A stretch of 29,075 nt of DNA, from the IMG/VR virus record IMGVR_UViG_2541047746_000007, one strand, 5' to 3'. Below, piece after piece: positions 4,906 to 20,685 of the stretch (positions are counted from its first letter, which is position 1; every line of letters starts with the position of its first letter). Source of the DNA: a virus (taxonomy: Duplodnaviria > Heunggongvirae > Uroviricota > Caudoviricetes). The notes below the pieces were generated by a model. The model was not told where the DNA came from, made no database searches, and worked only from the letters and a program-made list of their open reading frames with translations. A program made the position numbers and the translations under genes.

Positions 4906-5268
4906 TTAACGACCTGCTGCGCGGAGTTTTCCGTCAGGTTCACCGGCAAGAGTCAGTAATTGTCCCTGGTCTTCCTGCAGAATAGTCAGGCGACCACCGC
5001 GATTGACATACATCGGCGTTTCGGTGGTGTCTTCTTCGGAAATTTTCCCGCGGTTAGTCGGGCGAACATATGAGAGTTTGTGTTTGATTTTCACACGGTT
5101 CTCATCAAATGGTTCGATTTCCAGGTTGAGTGAGACCTTACCTTTGGTTTTCGTGTTCATCACACCTGAAGCGACTTCACTGAGAACTGCGCCGATTTTG
5201 GTTTCAAATACGCCGCCGTCCAGCTCCCCGATAAATGCCCGCACATCAGTACTGCGTTCGCTAGCCAT
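4906..5268 (-). CDS. yfdP: YfdP-like small protein, function unknown
   Basis: The track ORF (to 5454) is probably over-extended. The internal ATG at 5268 has a strong RBS (GAGGAG) and gives about 120 aa, beginning MASERSTDVRAFIGELDGG. Confidence 0.55.
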   Translation of the reverse strand: MASERSTDVRAFIGELDGGVFETKIGAVLSEVASGVMNTKTKGKVSLNLEIEPFDENRVKIKHKLSYVRPTNRGKISEEDTTETPMYVNRGGRLTILQEDQGQLLTLAGEPDGKLRAAGR

Positions 5269-5316
5269 TTTGCTGCTCCTCATCATATCGACCCTGCAAG
5301 GTCGGTTGGTTTCTCC

Positions 5317-5405
5317 ACAAAACAGAGAAGAACACCTGCGGTGGCAGCCGCCCGGATGGATTGGGTTATGAGCCCGTCGTCCGGTGATGCTCTTCTCTGT
5401 TTTGT
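5317..5405 (-). promoter_or_regulatory. Large hairpin in the early-left leader RNA (15-bp perfect stem, 59-nt loop), preceded by a boxA-like CGCTCTTTTTACA
   Basis: ACAAAACAGAGAAGA (5317-5331) is the exact reverse complement of TCTTCTCTGTTTTGT (5391-5405). On the minus strand GCTCTTTTTACAAA sits immediately 5' of the stem. Confidence 0.3.
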
Positions 5406-5413
5406 AAAAAGAG

Positions 5414-5450
5414 CGGTACCAGCCGGAAGCAAGTGTACAAACTGGTACCG
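5414..5450 (-). terminator. Hairpin plus U-run in the leader (candidate tL-type terminator or attenuator)
   Basis: 9-bp stem CGGTACCAG/CTGGTACCG with a 19-nt loop; on the minus strand it is followed by GCUCUUUUU. The loop contains another TTTGTACA motif. Confidence 0.35.
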
Positions 5451-5889
5451 CCAAAGCAGTGGCTGTTGTGGTGACCGGTGCTGATCTCCGGCTTGCGGTT
5501 ATTTCAGACTCTCACGGGTGTTTAATTGCCCCGCCGAACAGCTCTTTTCCGCAATAGCTGCAATGTCTTTCGCGCATCAGCCTGCGCATTCACCACAACG
5601 CTGAGAGCACTTAGCCAGTTACGGCACCACACTTTGTCGCGGTTCCATAAATGCCCTCATCGTTGCACCCTGGTCTCTTCCCAGGTGTCAAACCGAACCG
5701 CCACGCAGGTTAGGCGTCTTATCAGCATCATCATTGACTTGCACATTCCGGCTACCTGGTTTGTTTGTCCGAGCAAGGAGTGGATTGTCCCCTTTAACGT
5801 CCCCAGACCGCTAACGACGCATGTGCCATACGCCGTGTTACAACCAAATTTTGTTTGAATCTTGCCTGCCTCATGTTTCTTTTGGATAC

Positions 5890-5917
5890 ATTATGTATCT
5901 CATGGGTACATTGTCAA
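5890..5917 (-). promoter_or_regulatory. Candidate PL early-left promoter (TTGACA-16 nt-CATAAT), overlapped by palindrome GATACATTATGTATC (5885-5899)
   Basis: Minus-strand -35 TTGACA (5917-5912) and -10 CATAAT (5895-5890) with a 16-nt spacer; a 15-bp palindrome overlaps the -10, consistent with an OL operator. Confidence 0.45.
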
Positions 5918-5920
5918 GTA

Positions 5921-5943
5921 TAAAAAAACCTGCCGAAGCAGGT
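5921..5943 (-). terminator. Rho-independent terminator after cI
   Basis: Minus-strand hairpin ACCUGC-UUCG-GCAGGU followed by a U7 run, 14 nt beyond the cI stop. Confidence 0.65.
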
Positions 5944-5956
5944 TCATAAATATTGA

Positions 5957-6631
5957 TTAGGCCTTTATTGTGTATCTTCTTGGTTTTCCCGAGAAAATCA
6001 CTGTACCAATTATAGAGCAATTACCGTTAATCTTAATGTAAGGCTCAGGCCAGTTTGGGTTTAATGCTTTGAGATAACGCTGTGTTCCATCTTCTATCAA
6101 TCGCTTGAAGGTGGTTTCGCCTGTATCGTGCATCAATGCAATAACGTCGTCACCGTGGCAGGCAGGGACTTCGGGATCAACAAAAATCATGTCTCCAGGG
6201 CGGTACTCATCAATCATTGAATCACCAATCACCCGCAAGATATAAGTCATTTCGCCACAGGGTACAGGGCAGGGATACGTTTCTGCTGTGCTCAAATCAA
6301 CCTCAGAATAGCCAACTTCTTTCCATGCTCCGGCCTGTACCCATGATATGACAGGGACTAACGTTATTTGTTTGTTAGTGATTGAAACATCAGGTTTTTT
6401 TGTGATGTTCGTTGTCTGGTGTTCTTGATCAAGCCATCCGACAGGCAGGTCGAAACATTTTTCGATGTGCCGTGCCATGCTGTCACCGATATTTTTAGTA
6501 GCGCCATCCCCCATAAACCTGCTGGTTTGGGTTGGCTCGCGATCAATCATGGTGGCAAAGGATGAATTTCCGCCAACACCATCTCTCAGTTTTCTGGCGT
6601 TAGACCGCCGGATGTCATGGATTGTTTTCAT
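5957..6631 (-). CDS. cI: CI-type repressor (HTH_XRE N-terminal domain + S24/LexA-like peptidase C-terminal domain)
   Basis: 224 aa; N-terminal HTH region, C-terminal GDSM serine motif with a downstream lysine typical of autocleaving S24 repressors. Divergent from cro across an operator region. Confidence 0.85.
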   Translation of the reverse strand: MKTIHDIRRSNARKLRDGVGGNSSFATMIDREPTQTSRFMGDGATKNIGDSMARHIEKCFDLPVGWLDQEHQTTNITKKPDVSITNKQITLVPVISWVQAGAWKEVGYSEVDLSTAETYPCPVPCGEMTYILRVIGDSMIDEYRPGDMIFVDPEVPACHGDDVIALMHDTGETTFKRLIEDGTQRYLKALNPNWPEPYIKINGNCSIIGTVIFSGKPRRYTIKA

Positions 6632-6647
6632 AACGAAATTAAAACCT

Positions 6648-6666
6648 TTGTACCGATAAGGTACAA
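6648..6666. promoter_or_regulatory. OR operator palindrome TTGTACCGATAAGGTACAA; a second palindrome ATATGTA-N9-TACATAT (6696-6718) spans the cro RBS
   Basis: Perfect 7-bp inverted half-sites in the 90-bp cI-cro intergenic region; candidate PR -35 TTGAAG (6672-6677) and -10 TAATAT (6694-6699). Confidence 0.5.
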
Positions 6667-6721
6667 GTATCTTGAAGGTTCATTTCAATCATGTAATATG
6701 TATACCGGAGGTACATATTGT

Positions 6722-6922
6722 ATGAAAGCGTATTGGGACTCTTTAACCAAAGAACAGCAGGGCGAGTTGGCCGGAAAAGTTGGCTCAACACCTGGCTACT
6801 TACGGCTGGTTTTCAATGGTTATAAAAAAGCCAGTTTTGTGCTGGCGAAAAAACTTGAGCAATGCACGTCAGGTGCAATTACGAAATCTGACTTAAGACC
6901 GGATATCTATCCGAAAGATTAA
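6722..6922 (+). CDS. cro: Cro/YdaS-family HTH repressor
   Basis: 66 aa from the ATG at 6722 (RBS GGAGG 6706-6710). The GSTPGYLRLVFNGYKKAS...KSDLRPDIYP pattern resembles YdaS/Cro-type proteins. The track ORF start at 6617 is over-extended into the operator region. Confidence 0.8.
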   Translation: MKAYWDSLTKEQQGELAGKVGSTPGYLRLVFNGYKKASFVLAKKLEQCTSGAITKSDLRPDIYPKD

Positions 6923-6953: not shown

Positions 6954-7517
6954 ATGAGGCTAACCGTGGGTAAGTATCACTGGAAAGTAGAAAAACAGCC
7001 TGAGTGGTACGTGAAAGCTGTCAGAAAAACTATCGCAGCGTTGCCGGGTGGTTACGCTGAAGCAGCTGACTGGCTGGATGTAACAGAGAACGCATTATTT
7101 AACCGCCTTCGTGCCGATGGCGATCAGATTTTCCCGCTGGGATGGGCAATGGTTTTACAGCGCGCGGCTGGCACTCACTACATTGCGGATGCTGTCGCAC
7201 AGTCTGCTGGTGGGGTGTTCGTATCGCTTCCTGAAATTGAGGAAGTAGAGAACGCCGATATAAACCAGCGCCTGCTGGAAGTCATCGAACAGATCGGGAA
7301 TTACTCAAAGCAGATTCGTTCGGCAATCGAAGATGGGGTCGTGGAGCCACACGAGCAGACAGCAATTAATGATGAGTTGTATCTGTCAATTTCGAAGCTC
7401 CAAGAGCATGCAGCACTGGTCTACAAAATCTTTTGCGCTCCAGAAAAGAGTGACGCCCGCGAGTGTGCAGCTCCGGGCGTCGTGGCGTTTTGTGTCTGTG
7501 GAGAAACTAACGCATGA
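6954..7517 (+). CDS. CII-like / YdaT-like early regulatory protein (assignment uncertain)
   Basis: 187-aa ORF immediately after cro; its stop overlaps the next start (ATGA). Family call is by position and vague recollection only. Alternative GTG start at 6966 has a better RBS. Confidence 0.5.
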   Translation: MRLTVGKYHWKVEKQPEWYVKAVRKTIAALPGGYAEAADWLDVTENALFNRLRADGDQIFPLGWAMVLQRAAGTHYIADAVAQSAGGVFVSLPEIEEVENADINQRLLEVIEQIGNYSKQIRSAIEDGVVEPHEQTAINDELYLSISKLQEHAALVYKIFCAPEKSDARECAAPGVVAFCVCGETNA

Positions 7518-16515: not shown

Positions 16516-16815
16516 AAAAATTCCTTAATACTGATAACTGGGCGCACTATACACACGTTCCTGAAGAAAGCTATAGTTTTTTGATGGGGTTGAAGATGGC
16601 TGGATGTCTAAAATAAACATTGCTTCATATGTTCAACTATGCGTTAATGATTGCGTCGGTTTGAAGAACAGACGATATACGAAGTAGTTTACTAAAGCAG
16701 TTCTCATTTCAGGTGTTATTCACTTATTCCTTCTTTGAGTCTCTCCAATTAAGTACGAAGTCGTTTCTGTTATACAAGCCATTTATGCCGAAAGGCTCAA
16801 GTTAAGGAATGTAGA

Positions 16816-17031
16816 ATGTCAAATAAAATGACTGGTTTAGTAAAATGGTTTAACGCTGATAAAGGTTTTGGCTTTATTTCTCCTGTTGATGGTAGTAAAG
16901 ATGTGTTTGTGCATTTTTCTGCGATTCAGAATGATAATTTTCGAACCTTATTTGAAGGTCAAAAGGTTACCTTCTCTGTAGAGAGTGGTGCTAAAGGTCC
17001 TGCAGCAGCAAATGTCATAATTACTGATTAA
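16816..17031 (+). CDS. cspB: Cold-shock protein, CspB-like
   Basis: 71 aa; [38 protein letters not shown] carries the RNP1/RNP2 motifs of CspA-family proteins. RBS AAGGAA. Confidence 0.8.
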
Positions 17032-17312
17032 AATTCATAGTTTGTCTGTATACGATAACGAAGAAGGCTGATGCCTGAGTGGAGATACAGACAGAGTGGT
17101 GAATATTGGATCTCTTTAATAAATAGTAAGGAGGTCCAATACATGAAACAATGGCCAGCATATTTGGCAATAACTTAATCAGGAAAAGTATGCTAACCAT
17201 TGTGGTGAAGTGCAGGTTTGCTGCATGAATAGTTTTACAGCAGAAGCTAACTGCTGGCATAGCAAAACAAAGTGCGTAAGTGGATGACTCCCACAAAAAG
17301 TACCACAATATT

Positions 17313-17337
17313 AAACCCGCTCAGGCGGGTTTTTTAT
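17313..17337 (+). terminator. Rho-independent terminator, possibly bidirectional
   Basis: AAA-CCCGC-TCAG-GCGGG-TTTTTT downstream of cspB, in the gap before the convergent minus-strand zinc-ribbon gene. Confidence 0.75.
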
Positions 17338-18876: not shown

Positions 18877-19904
<1,028 letters not shown>

Positions 19905-20267
19905 ATTAATATTAAATCGGATTATTTTTAGCGCTGAATGTGAAATTTAAATAAAAAGGACTCTTCCATGAGTCAAAATCCTTGAAATCTTAAGGGTAAG
20001 ATAAAAGGTCATTAGACAGAATGACACGTTTTATTAATAAATAAAGCTATTGTTTCATTCGTGTGTTTTTCTTTACAAAAGTAATCCTTGCTATGGTTGG
20101 TTAATCATGCGTTAATGGTGTTCTGGTTTGTTACAAAATTATCTGAAGCAGTCATTGTTATAATTTTATTATTTGTACCTCTTGAGATTTCCTTGTTGGT
20201 TTTTCTCTCTGATATTTTTTTTCGGACCATTCTGCCCAAGGGCTAACTTCTTCAAAAGGTAATAATG

Positions 20268-20480
20268 ATGTCTAACAAAATGACTGGTTTAGTGAAATGG
20301 TTTAACCCTGAAAAAGGTTTTGGTTTCATCACGCCGAAAGATGGTAGCAAAGATGTGTTTGTGCATTTCTCAGCTATTCAGAGCAACGATTTCAAAACGT
20401 TAACTGAGAATCAGGAAGTCGAATTTGGTATTGAGAACGGACCTAAAGGCCCTGCAGCTGTTCATGTAGTGGCACTTTGA
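20268..20480 (+). CDS. cspI: Cold-shock protein CspI-like
   Basis: 70 aa; [42 protein letters not shown]...[13 protein letters not shown]. Long AT-rich 5' leader upstream, typical of csp genes. Confidence 0.85.
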
Positions 20481-20685
20481 GGTAGAAAATATTACAAACC
20501 ATATTCACTTTAGATGCCCGTGTTGCCATGGTTCTCAGTATAGAACATCATCTTTTGATGTTTCTGACAGAAATCCTTTCGGGGCAAAATGTATCTTTTG
20601 TAAATCAATGATGATTACATTTGATAATATTTCACAATACTTAAATGTTAGCCATCTGTCGTTAGATTTAAGAAAGTGAAAATGA

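What the first reader, a model, noticed from the sequence alone, without database searches (positions are those of the whole stretch)
5269..5956. N-less early-left operon with a ~600-nt structured leader: boxA-like element, terminator-like hairpin and a 15-bp-stem hairpin
About 600 nt separate the predicted PL (5890-5917) from the first early-left gene (5268), with no ORF of 60 aa or more in the transcribed direction, so no N-like antiterminator is encoded where lambda has one. The leader instead holds a hairpin plus U-run (5414-5450), then a boxA-like CGCUCUUUUUACA next to a perfect 15-bp stem with a 59-nt loop (5317-5405). This looks like a cis-acting RNA control element (put-like antitermination RNA, attenuator or sRNA) rather than empty spacer.
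Basis: partly seen in the sequence, partly recalled or inferred. Interest (0 to 1): 0.6.

Follow-up and report, generated by a model that had tools for sequence, protein, structure and literature searches.

The report
Modular phage RNA genes behind PL
The 600-base "empty" stretch after this prophage's early-left promoter is a string of conserved, folded RNA modules, one a distant relative of the prophage small RNAs STnc100/PasD on a tRNA-shaped scaffold with a hypervariable insert, that recur in hundreds of unrelated phages, often next to tRNA genes.

Summary
The sequence features are real: a repressor-controlled PL (5890-5917), no conserved ORF, a strong hairpin plus U-run (5406-5452) and a perfect 15-bp stem (5317-5405). 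The "boxA" is not supported.

The main content was missed. Between PL and the hairpin lies a ~385-nt composite RNA at 5464-5848, minus strand. It has three parts:
- Module A: five helices and a pseudoknot.
- A clamp helix (K5/K3).
- Module B: a tRNA-shaped scaffold (closing helix and two hairpins with kissing loops) carrying a hypervariable insert.

Covariation supports A, B and the 15-bp-stem module C. B occurs in more than 170 distinct contexts in phages and prophages of Gamma- and Betaproteobacteria. Typical settings are just downstream of CI-type repressor genes, upstream of lysis genes, or in tRNA arrays (P1, RCS47). No Rfam family reaches its threshold on A, B or C. B grades through SfIV/ST64B intermediates into Rfam STnc100, the Hfq-dependent STnc100/PasD prophage sRNA family.

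The hairpin plus U-run is the terminator of this RNA. Module C displays a 14-nt copy of the initiator-tRNA anticodon arm.

Best reading: immediate-early non-coding RNA gene(s) ending at a promoter-proximal terminator, with read-through feeding yfdPQR. It does not resemble HK022 put. Function is unproven.

The parts
5890..5917 (-). PL promoter (TTGACA-16-CATAAT) with an operator-like palindrome at 5893-5911 in the spacer
   Evidence: 11/12 match. Searches show related palindromes at 6648-6666 and ~6699-6717 in the cI-cro region.
5926..5945 (-). Intrinsic terminator of the S24/LexA-type repressor gene (5957-6631)
   Evidence: repressor Pfam PF00717.
5664..5848 (-). Module A: a conserved structured RNA. 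H1 5815-5835. Invariant GGCACAU (5821-5827) can pair with AUGUGC in block GGUAGCCGGAAUGUGCAAG (5738-5756) as a pseudoknot. H2 encloses a variable hairpin. H4 5691-5711. H5 5669-5685.
   Evidence: Homologues sit directly after trnI in P1 and before tRNA-Arg in O157 typing phage 9. The 17-sequence alignment is 97.4% paired, 8 pairs show changes on both sides, and 0/500 shuffles reach this. Coordinates.
5600..5661 (-). Clamp helix: K5 (5649-5661, GAUGAGGGCAUUU) pairs with K3 (5600-5612, AAGUGCUCUCAGC) and encloses a small variable hairpin. In other phages the enclosed segment is a tRNA-like sequence or the module C hairpin.
   Evidence: K5...K3-B order recurs in most loci. The pairing appears in the MFE fold. 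Sequences.
5465..5599 (-). Module B: a tRNA-shaped scaffold. P1 GUUGUGGUGA (5590-5599) pairs with CACCACAAC (5465-5473). P2 hairpin 5572-5588. Hypervariable insert 5493-5571. P3 hairpin 5474-5492. The P2 loop GCUGA and the P3 loop UCAGC are complementary.
   Evidence: Model R1 scores 94 bits, E 4e-23. Covariation: 96.2% paired, 11 pairs with changes on both sides, 0/500 shuffles. Insert length is ~13-200 nt across >120 viral contigs. 49 of 60 substitutions against phage Ayreon fall in 5450-5600.
5406..5452 (-). Intrinsic terminator (12-13-bp stem, 19-nt loop, CUCUUUUU).
   Evidence: dG -22.5 kcal/mol for the 76-nt segment 5470-5395; terminator-like sites follow B in 49/122 contexts against 10/102 controls. 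The Rfam STnc100 terminator aligns to the SfIV copy of this hairpin. One search shows the stem varies while the U-run is kept.
5317..5405 (-). The loop of the first hairpin carries CGGGCUCAUAACCC (5363-5376), identical to the anticodon stem-loop of E. coli initiator tRNA metY.
   Evidence: 8 of 32 pairs compensatory; 14-nt identity to metY; not coding; z -5.96.
5266..5303 (-). Small hairpin (5290-5303), Shine-Dalgarno GAGGAG and the ATG of yfdP (5268)

Best explanation
The leader is an array of non-coding RNA genes, not a regulatory spacer.

Proposed course of events:
1. When the S24/LexA-type repressor is inactivated, PL fires.
2. The first ~470 nt made are a structured RNA: module A, a clamp helix and module B, ending at the intrinsic terminator at 5452-5406.
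3. Polymerases that read through the terminator transcribe module C and then yfdP-yfdQ-yfdR.

Module B is a tRNA-shaped scaffold. A closing helix stacks on a T-arm-like hairpin. A D-arm-like hairpin kisses that hairpin's loop. A hypervariable domain sits where the anticodon arm would be. B is a distant member of the superfamily that includes the Hfq-dependent prophage sRNAs STnc100 and PasD.

I infer that B plus the terminator, alone or still joined to A, acts in trans as a stable RNA. Its constant scaffold would give stability or bind a conserved host factor. Its variable insert would carry the specificity, either as a seed or as a ligand surface.

Shown here: the promoter and operator, the terminator, the conservation, the covariation, the distribution, and the graded similarity to STnc100.

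Inferred: that transcription ends at the terminator in vivo, that any processing occurs, that the RNA acts in trans, and what it binds.
For: Structure and conservation:
- B: 24 pairs including the loop-loop helix, 96.2% paired, 11 pairs changed on both sides, 0/500 shuffles, slid controls 26-51% paired.
- A: 27 pairs, 97.4% paired, 8 pairs changed on both sides, 0/500 shuffles.
- C: 8 of 32 pairs compensatory.

Not coding:
- 60 substitutions against phage Ayreon split 23/20/17 by position mod 3, with indels of 1, 1, 8, 7, 1 and 3 nt.
- The reading frame through C is not conserved.

Distribution:
- 53 genome loci, from Enterobacterales to Janthinobacterium, Massilia, Aeromonas and Lysobacterales.
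- 3276 E. coli records match part of the query.

Recurrent contexts:
- A CI-type repressor ~1 kb upstream on the same strand in 48 loci.
- Lysozyme and spanin genes downstream in 31-33 loci.
- A tRNA within 600 nt in 31 of 173 contexts, always on the same strand.

Terminator:
- A terminator-like site follows B in 49/122 contexts against 10/102 controls.

Link to known sRNAs (a graded series):
- Rfam STnc100 scores 38.4 and 35.1 bits on the SfIV and ST64B elements, which my B model scores at 35.1 and 38.9 bits at the same places.
- Canonical STnc100 of phage 933W scores 207.7 bits in Rfam and aligns in register to the B model at 10.6 bits.
- STnc100 and PasD are expressed, Northern-verified, Hfq-dependent sRNAs ending in terminators (PMC8550237, PMC5331693, bioRxiv 10.64898/2026.05.13.724894).
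Against: - No expression data exist for this locus. E. coli K-12 lacks it.
- The window's B does not match the Rfam STnc100 model, even at E<=10 on 256 nt, so homology rests on intermediates and shared architecture.
- A 25-nt core identical between E. coli and Janthinobacterium elements is far more conserved than typical Hfq sRNA scaffolds. That points to some other conserved partner.
- Modules A and C have no described relative, so their roles are open.
- How enough polymerase passes a 12-bp-stem terminator without N is unexplained. Relatives carry extra PL-proximal elements (E5', and boxA in SfIV) that this window lacks.
Confidence: 0.55

Rival explanations
1. A cis-acting processive antiterminator, working like put. 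The nascent A and/or B RNA would bind the transcribing RNA polymerase and make it resistant to the terminator at 5452-5406 and to later ones. That would replace N in this N-less operon.
For: - The layout is promoter, structured RNA, terminator, then genes, in an N-less phage.
- The other recurrent contexts, before lysis genes and inside tRNA operons, are also long operons that must read through hairpins.
- Extreme conservation of the 25-nt core fits a universally conserved partner such as RNA polymerase.
- For the related phage LLS, the authors can only speculate about a put-like mechanism (PMC12315714).
Against: - No similarity to HK022 putL in size, position or fold (PMC9378689).
- Relatives of B (STnc100, PasD) accumulate as free, Hfq-bound sRNAs (PMC8550237).
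- A hypervariable insert, and tRNA-like segments nested in the K5/K3 clamp or the insert, are odd for an RNA that must dock co-transcriptionally.
- Relatives carry a different conserved element (E5') at the true put position, right after PL, and keep A/B as well.
Confidence: 0.13
2. tRNA mimics serving translation or anti-defence. B (a tRNA-like fold) and C (a copy of the initiator-tRNA anticodon arm) would act as decoys or ligands for tRNA-binding host factors: anticodon nucleases such as VapC-type toxins that cut tRNA-fMet, RNase P, modification enzymes, or the 30S P site. The variable insert would track an arms race.
For: - 14-nt identity of the C loop to the metY anticodon stem-loop. The CAU loop and GGG/CCC stem are kept in P1 and other copies, with covarying closing stems.
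- B has an acceptor/T-arm-like coaxial layout and loop-loop contact.
- tRNA genes lie on the same strand nearby in 31/173 contexts. Some variable segments (the K5-K3 enclosed segment in L101, the B insert in L126) contain tRNA-like D- and T-arm sequences.
- The insert is the substitution hot spot.
Against: - ARAGORN and the Rfam tRNA model do not recognise B or C.
- B has no T-loop consensus and no 3' CCA.
- No defence or tRNA-related protein gene is consistently adjacent.
- The role of VapC is recalled from the literature and was not tested here.
Confidence: 0.17
3. Non-functional mosaic debris: remnants of tRNA genes and recombination scars that are carried along, or small protein-coding genes that were missed.
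For: - The region is a mosaic of pieces found separately in other phages.
- Some annotators called small ORFs on it, such as P1 plp/upl and Ayreon hypotheticals.
Against: - Compensatory changes occur in three independent modules.
- A 25-nt core is kept across bacterial classes.
- Substitutions show no codon periodicity and the indels break frames.
- The annotated ORFs differ between close relatives and are not conserved.
Confidence: 0.04

Closest known systems
STnc100 (Rfam RF02076) and PasD1/PasD2 prophage sRNAs
   Same: - The same architecture as module B. A closing helix UGGUG/CACCA is followed by GAAU, then a first hairpin and a variable middle. A second hairpin abuts the 3' strand of the closing helix, and an intrinsic terminator follows.
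- Encoded in lambdoid prophage operon leaders. The SfIV and ST64B copies occupy the same cI-to-yfdP position as the window's B.
   Different: - The window's B is not detected by the Rfam model.
- Its two hairpins have different sequences and longer, mutually complementary loops.
- Its core reaches Betaproteobacteria.
- It sits behind PL and is joined to module A by a clamp helix, whereas STnc100/PasD lie between Q or stx and the lysis genes (bioRxiv 10.64898/2026.05.13.724894).
- Hfq dependence is unknown here.
HK022 put RNAs (putL, putR)
   Same: An RNA element downstream of PL in a lambdoid phage without N, upstream of a terminator.
   Different: - put is ~70 nt, forms two stem-loops and starts at +3 of the transcript (PMC9378689).
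- There is no sequence or model similarity.
- The window's elements total ~385 nt, start ~35 nt downstream of the start site, and recur outside PL contexts.
GOLLD and ROOL large RNAs
   Same: Large, multi-helix RNAs found in prophages and often beside tRNA genes. In this family tRNA-like segments lie inside variable regions. That GOLLD can hold tRNAs within variable regions is my recollection. The tRNA and prophage association of both RNAs is from PMC5737381.
   Different: - No Rfam match to either.
- Different phyla (Proteobacteria phages against Firmicutes and others).
- Smaller and modular: A, B and C also occur separately.
Promoter-proximal terminated phage transcripts that double as sRNAs (lambda PR'-tR' 6S RNA; StxS)
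   Same: A promoter, a short structured RNA and a terminator, with read-through needed for the genes downstream. Comparison from general knowledge, not tested here.
   Different: Those sit at the late promoter and depend on Q. Here the promoter is PL, it is repressor-controlled, and no antiterminator is known.
Transfer RNA, and engineered tRNA scaffolds for RNA expression
   Same: A closing helix stacked on a 5-bp hairpin, a second hairpin whose loop contacts the first, and cargo placed where the anticodon arm would be. Co-located and co-oriented with tRNA genes.
   Different: Not recognised by ARAGORN or the Rfam tRNA model. No T-loop or D-loop consensus and no CCA end. The loops pair by five Watson-Crick base pairs.

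Membership tests
STnc100 (RF02076) | Reaches the Rfam gathering score (47 bits) | tested here: not met
   No hit at E<=10 on window 5395-5650 or 5100-6100. The SfIV and ST64B intermediates reach 38.4 and 35.1 bits. Canonical 933W reaches 207.7 bits.
STnc100 (RF02076) | Architecture: closing helix UGGUG/CACCA, GAAU junction, hairpin, variable region, a hairpin abutting the 3' strand, then a terminator | tested here: met
   The B model aligns in register to canonical STnc100.
STnc100 / PasD | Accumulates as a discrete Hfq-dependent sRNA | not testable with these tools
   Shown only for STnc100 and PasD themselves (PMC8550237, PMC5331693).
HK022-type put RNA | ~70-nt two-stem-loop RNA beginning at the start of the PL transcript | tested here: not met
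   putL read from HK022 (numbering agrees with PMC9378689). The window's first ~35 nt are unstructured and A-rich. No similarity.
HK022-type put RNA | Acts in cis on RNA polymerase (beta-prime zinc-binding domain) to suppress termination | not testable with these tools
   Needs read-through assays.
lambda nut site / N antitermination | boxA (CGCUCUUA / GCUCUUUAACAA) followed by a boxB hairpin, plus an N gene | tested here: not met
   No boxA within 2 mismatches in the leader. The GCUCUUU core is not conserved in homologues. No N-like ORF. SfIV has a perfect boxA, so the test can succeed.
tRNA | Cloverleaf recognised by ARAGORN or Rfam RF00005 | tested here: not met
   Only partial mimicry: the B layout, and a 14-nt identity of C to the initiator anticodon arm.
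GOLLD / ROOL | Match to the Rfam covariance models | tested here: not met
Intrinsic (Rho-independent) terminator | G+C-rich hairpin immediately followed by a U-run | tested here: met
   5452-5406. Missed by the simple scan only because its loop is 19 nt. Conserved as a hairpin plus U-run with different stems.

The most novel reading that the evidence does not exclude
Modules A, K, B and C would be a previously undescribed toolkit of phage RNA modules, spread across Proteobacteria phages and co-transcribed with tRNAs.
- B would be a natural tRNA-shaped display scaffold. Its invariant 25-nt core would bind a universal host machine, and its hypervariable insert would evolve rapidly.
- STnc100 and PasD would be one derived branch of this family.
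- C would be an initiator-tRNA anticodon-arm mimic.
- The ~385-nt A-K-B composite would be a proteobacterial counterpart of GOLLD/ROOL-type phage RNAs.
Probability: 0.4. Interest if true: 0.85.

Novelty: new variant of a known kind. Interest (0 to 1): 0.72.

Why it matters
- Scale and blind spot. A family present in thousands of E. coli genomes, in phage P1 and in phages of several proteobacterial classes has no model in Rfam 15. In places it is annotated as dubious proteins, for example P1 plp/upl.
- A wider frame for known sRNAs. The family links the poorly understood STnc100/PasD sRNAs of pathogenic E. coli to a much larger, older group built on a tRNA-like scaffold with a swappable domain. 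That gives a concrete hypothesis for how these sRNAs diversify.
- An open question made testable. How lambdoid phages of the ST64B/LLS/mEp460 class express early-left genes without N is unresolved. The parts are now mapped: PL, the RNA, the terminator, module C, and the E5'/boxA elements present in relatives but absent here.
- A specific lead. The initiator-tRNA anticodon-arm copy can be tested for roles in translation or anti-defence.

Tried and rejected
- Known RNA families: Rfam at gathering and at E<=10 found nothing in the leader, and only tRNAs and one IS element in 20 related loci.
- tRNA genes: ARAGORN found none in the window.
- Small proteins: rejected. This covers the 26-aa Arg-rich ORF 5794-5874, the 49-aa ORF 5283-5432, the plus-strand 110-aa ORF 5526-5858 and the 182-aa extension of yfdP. 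Substitutions show no codon periodicity, the indels break frames and the frames are not conserved.
- P1 Plp as a lipoprotein explaining the 40-nt core: rejected. The ORF lies on the opposite strand, starts with TTG, is Cys-rich nonsense and differs in RCS47.
- Hammerhead-like reading of CUGAUG...GAAA: rejected by eye. There is no room for stem II, and GAAA is not conserved.
- put homology: HK022 putL was located and compared, with no similarity. The paper on HK639-type antiterminator RNAs could not be read.
- Literature search for the core sequence: no paper holds it. Searches for tRNA-like phage RNAs and for GOLLD/ROOL analogues in Enterobacteria found nothing relevant.
- E. coli K-12 as a source of expression data: CPS-53 lacks the element.
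- rydB: it shares only the 17-nt P3 hairpin, too weak to call homology.
- RNAalifold's nested long-range model for module A: replaced by the H1-plus-pseudoknot model because H1 covaries and the alternative pairs do not.
Full report
**Setting**

The window is a lambdoid prophage of E. coli. Pfam assignments place these genes:
- integrase at 386-1621;
- a yfdR-like 5'-deoxynucleotidase (3915-3352), yfdQ/DUF2303 (4840-4016) and yfdP (5268-4906) on the minus strand;
- an S24/LexA-type repressor at 6631-5957 (minus);
- a cro-like gene (6617-6922), a CII-like gene, Ash, replication genes, Dam and RusA;
- an ISL3 transposase;
- antiterminator Q (15135-15887) and lysozyme (18877-19410).

A genome 98.8% identical over the finding annotates nothing between the repressor (ymfK) and yfdP.

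**Checking the observation**

The promoter TTGACA-16-CATAAT at 5917-5890 matches 11 of 12 consensus positions. It follows the repressor's own terminator at 5945-5926. Its spacer holds ATGTACCCATGAGATACAT, which resembles TTGTACCGATAAGGTACAA (6648-6666) and a third palindrome in the cI-cro region. It is therefore a repressor-controlled PL.

The hairpin plus U-run is real. It has a 12-13-bp stem at 5452-5411 followed by CUCUUUUU (dG -22.5 kcal/mol for the 76-nt segment 5470-5395, which also holds a small upstream hairpin). The 15-bp arms 5405-5391 and 5331-5317 are perfectly complementary. The surrounding 142 nt fold at -59.5 kcal/mol, z = -5.96.

The boxA reading fails:
- No site within two mismatches of GCUCUUUAACAA lies in the leader.
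- The GCUCUUU core is simply the 3' arm of the terminator stem running into its U-tract.
- It is replaced by other sequences in homologues, while the U-run persists.

**The leader is a mosaic of modules**

BLAST against phage genomes split the leader into pieces that occur separately elsewhere.
- The piece at 5849-5593 matches P1, P7 and D6 directly after the tRNA-Ile gene trnI and before ban. It also matches O157 typing phage 9 directly before tRNA-Arg.
- The piece at 5612-5464 matches RCS47 just after tRNA-Thr.
- A 40-nt core of the second piece is ~92% identical in T1-like, N4-like and Ackermannviridae phages. There it lies in stretches holding only tiny annotated ORFs, and beside tRNA genes in the N4-like phage.

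**Module B (5465-5599)**

Its two ends are nearly invariant and its middle is not. The 5' end reads GUUGUGGUGA-AU-GCGCAGGCUGAUGCGC. The 3' end reads GCCGGAGAUCAGCACCGG-(U/C)-CACCACAAC.

Inserts ran from about 13 to about 200 nt of unrelated sequence. The exact 25-nt core is also in 53 bacterial genome loci. These include Enterobacterales, Aeromonas, Janthinobacterium, Massilia, Undibacterium, Xenophilus, Lysobacterales, Moraxellaceae and a Geobacteraceae MAG.

The ends pair as a closing helix (P1). Inside it are hairpin P2, the insert, and hairpin P3, which abuts the 3' strand of P1. The P2 loop (GCUGA) is complementary to the P3 loop (UCAGC).

On a 39-sequence alignment these 24 pairs are 96.2% paired. 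Eleven pairs show changes on both sides, and no shuffle out of 500 reaches the observed values. Sliding the partners drops pairing to 26-51%.

The layout resembles a tRNA. An acceptor-like helix stacks on a T-arm-like hairpin, a D-arm-like hairpin touches its loop, and cargo replaces the anticodon arm. It is not a tRNA by ARAGORN or Rfam.

A covariance model built from the alignment scores the window copy at 94 bits, E 4e-23.

Against phage Ayreon (90% identical overall), 49 of 60 substitutions and most indels fall in 5450-5600, that is, in the insert.

**Module A and the clamp**

Module A spans 5664-5848. Its conserved blocks are:
- ACGGCGUAUGGCACAUGCGUCG;
- AGCGGUCYGG ... CCRGGUAGCCGGAAUGUGCAAGCC;
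- UCACCAUCGUGGCGGUUCGGUGUGAC;
- a hairpin CCUCG-GAAGAGA-CGAGG.

Two variable hairpins lie between the blocks.

My model has five helices, including a pseudoknot between the invariant GGCACAU and AUGUGC. It is 97.4% paired on 17 sequences, eight pairs show changes on both sides, and no shuffle out of 500 reaches this.

After A comes K5 (consensus GGUAAGAGCAUU). It pairs with K3 (AGUGCUCUUUCC), which immediately precedes B. In the window both arms have diverged but still pair (5649-5661 with 5600-5612). In other phages the segment enclosed by K5 and K3 is a tRNA-like sequence or the module C hairpin.

The order A - K5 - K3 - B recurs in many loci. The window therefore holds a complete ~385-nt composite.

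**The terminator**

A terminator-like hairpin plus U-run lies within 160 nt downstream of B in 49 of 122 distinct contexts. Control windows show this in 10 of 102.

The 'terminator-like hairpin' is therefore the 3' end of the RNA gene.

**Module C (5317-5405)**

Eight diverged copies share three features (8 of 32 pairs compensatory):
- an inner hairpin whose closing stem covaries (CCGGA/UCCGG, GCGUG/CACGC, CCUGAUG/CAUCAGG, CCUGU/ACAGG);
- a variable hairpin.

The inner loop carries CGGGCUCAUAACCC. This is identical over 14 nt to the anticodon stem-loop of E. coli initiator tRNA metY.

The hairpin alone also occurs inside K5/K3 clamps and next to tRNAs. C precedes different genes in different phages and is read in different frames, so it is not coding.

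**Link to known sRNAs**

SfIV and ST64B have the same layout: repressor, PL, a long gap, terminator, C, then yfdP-like. In both, the Rfam family STnc100 scores 38.4 and 35.1 bits (gathering score 47). It does so at the places my B model scores 35.1 and 38.9 bits.

The STnc100 consensus has the same plan. It has a closing helix UGGUG/CACCA, GAAU, a hairpin, a variable middle, the hairpin CCGGG-AGGCA-CCCGG abutting the 3' strand, and a terminator.

Canonical STnc100 of phage 933W lies downstream of stx2B in an operon that also holds three tRNAs. It scores 207.7 bits in Rfam and aligns in register to my model at 10.6 bits.

The window's own B gets no STnc100 hit. The three forms therefore make a graded series, and B is best called a distant subfamily.

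What is known of the described members:
- STnc100 has eleven expressed copies in EDL933, one verified by Northern blot (PMC5331693).
- PasD1 and PasD2 are Hfq-dependent, Northern-verified sRNAs of EPEC (PMC8550237).
- PasD was recently recognised as a structural homologue of STnc100 with a different seed. Both lie between Q and the lysis genes, and their function is unknown (bioRxiv 10.64898/2026.05.13.724894).

**Contexts**

Among loci with B:
- 48 have a CI-type repressor about 1 kb upstream on the same strand, as here;
- 31-33 have lysozyme and spanin genes downstream;
- 31 of 173 distinct contexts have a tRNA within 600 nt, always on the same strand.

**The N-less problem**

Relatives of this operon (LLS, ST64B, phiNP) are noted in the literature to lack N. 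A put-like mechanism is offered there only as speculation (PMC12315714).

I read HK022 putL from its genome; the residue numbering agrees with PMC9378689. It has no similarity to anything in the window.

In SfIV, ST64B, phiNP and eight other loci, a different conserved ~65-nt element (E5') begins about 10 nt after the promoter, and one of its stems covaries. SfIV also has a perfect rrn-type boxA.

The window has neither. How its polymerase passes the terminator is unexplained. Leaky termination is the simplest assumption.

**Conclusion**

The finding is real and more interesting than stated, but the interpretation shifts. The leader is an array of RNA genes or modules expressed first from PL. 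Module B belongs to the wider STnc100/PasD superfamily. The flagged hairpins are this RNA's terminator and a separate initiator-tRNA-mimicking module.

A cis-antitermination role cannot be excluded, and neither can a tRNA-decoy role. The trans-acting function is inferred, not shown.

Noticed in passing
window 17185-17336 (+): A second, weak module-B-like element (R1 21 bits): AGUAUGCUAACC-AUUGUGGUGAA ... UACCACAAU. An intrinsic terminator (AAACCCGCUCAGGCGGGUUUUUU) follows directly. It lies between Q plus the first cspA-like gene and the lysis genes, which is the classic STnc100/PasD position. Rfam gives no STnc100 hit.
   Followed up: partly
window 7874-8062 (+): Rfam isrK (55.4 bits) is followed directly by a C4 antisense RNA (82.8 bits). 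Both lie inside the mechanical ORF 7514-8350, which carries an Ash-family domain. This looks like a P1/P7-type antisense immunity module in a lambdoid prophage.
   Followed up: no
window 16655-17094 and 20110-20526 (+): Two cspA thermoregulator/cold-shock gene matches (156.5 and 110.1 bits) in the late region, flanking the lysis genes.
   Followed up: no
window 11949-13169 (+): An ISL3-family transposase is inserted among the early-right (nin-region) genes.
   Followed up: no
L185 (SfIV) ~445-520; L186 (ST64B) ~940-1010; L187 (phiNP) ~830-900; eight IMG/VR and genome loci: A conserved ~65-nt structured element (E5'): CAACAGCGAACAGGCAGGACGCCCACGAAGUAGCCGCC-stem-GGAUGAUUCGCU. It starts ~10 nt after PL promoters of different immunities, and one stem covaries. 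It is a candidate put-like early antiterminator for this N-less phage class. It is absent, or perhaps internally deleted, in the window. SfIV also has a perfect boxA at L185 548-559.
   Followed up: partly
L004 (phage P1) 463-1032 and L003 (RCS47) 1556-2167: The annotated CDSs plp ('putative lipoprotein') and upl lie on the strand opposite to module-B-type RNA elements. They start with TTG/Leu and differ between P1 and RCS47. They are probably spurious calls over non-coding RNA genes. P1 carries at least three B-type copies and one module A (after trnI, before ban).
   Followed up: partly
L188 (E. coli K-12) 2723-2739, rydB: The core-genome sRNA RydB contains CCGGAGAUAAGCGCCGG, nearly identical to the P3 hairpin of module B. 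Nothing else aligns. It may be a relic or chance.
   Followed up: partly
module A H4 region in many homologues (e.g. L005 ~2114-2132): The conserved GAUUCACCAU of module A is complementary to the conserved GUGGUGAAU of module B, giving a possible A-B or intermolecular pairing. In the window the A copy reads CUAACCUG, so the complementarity is lost. Covariation supports pairing within A.
   Followed up: no
window 4906-5454 (-): The yfdP reading frame is open for 186 nt upstream of its annotated ATG, through module C and into the terminator. SfIV gp34 is annotated with such an extension. The frame is not conserved in diverged homologues.
   Followed up: yes
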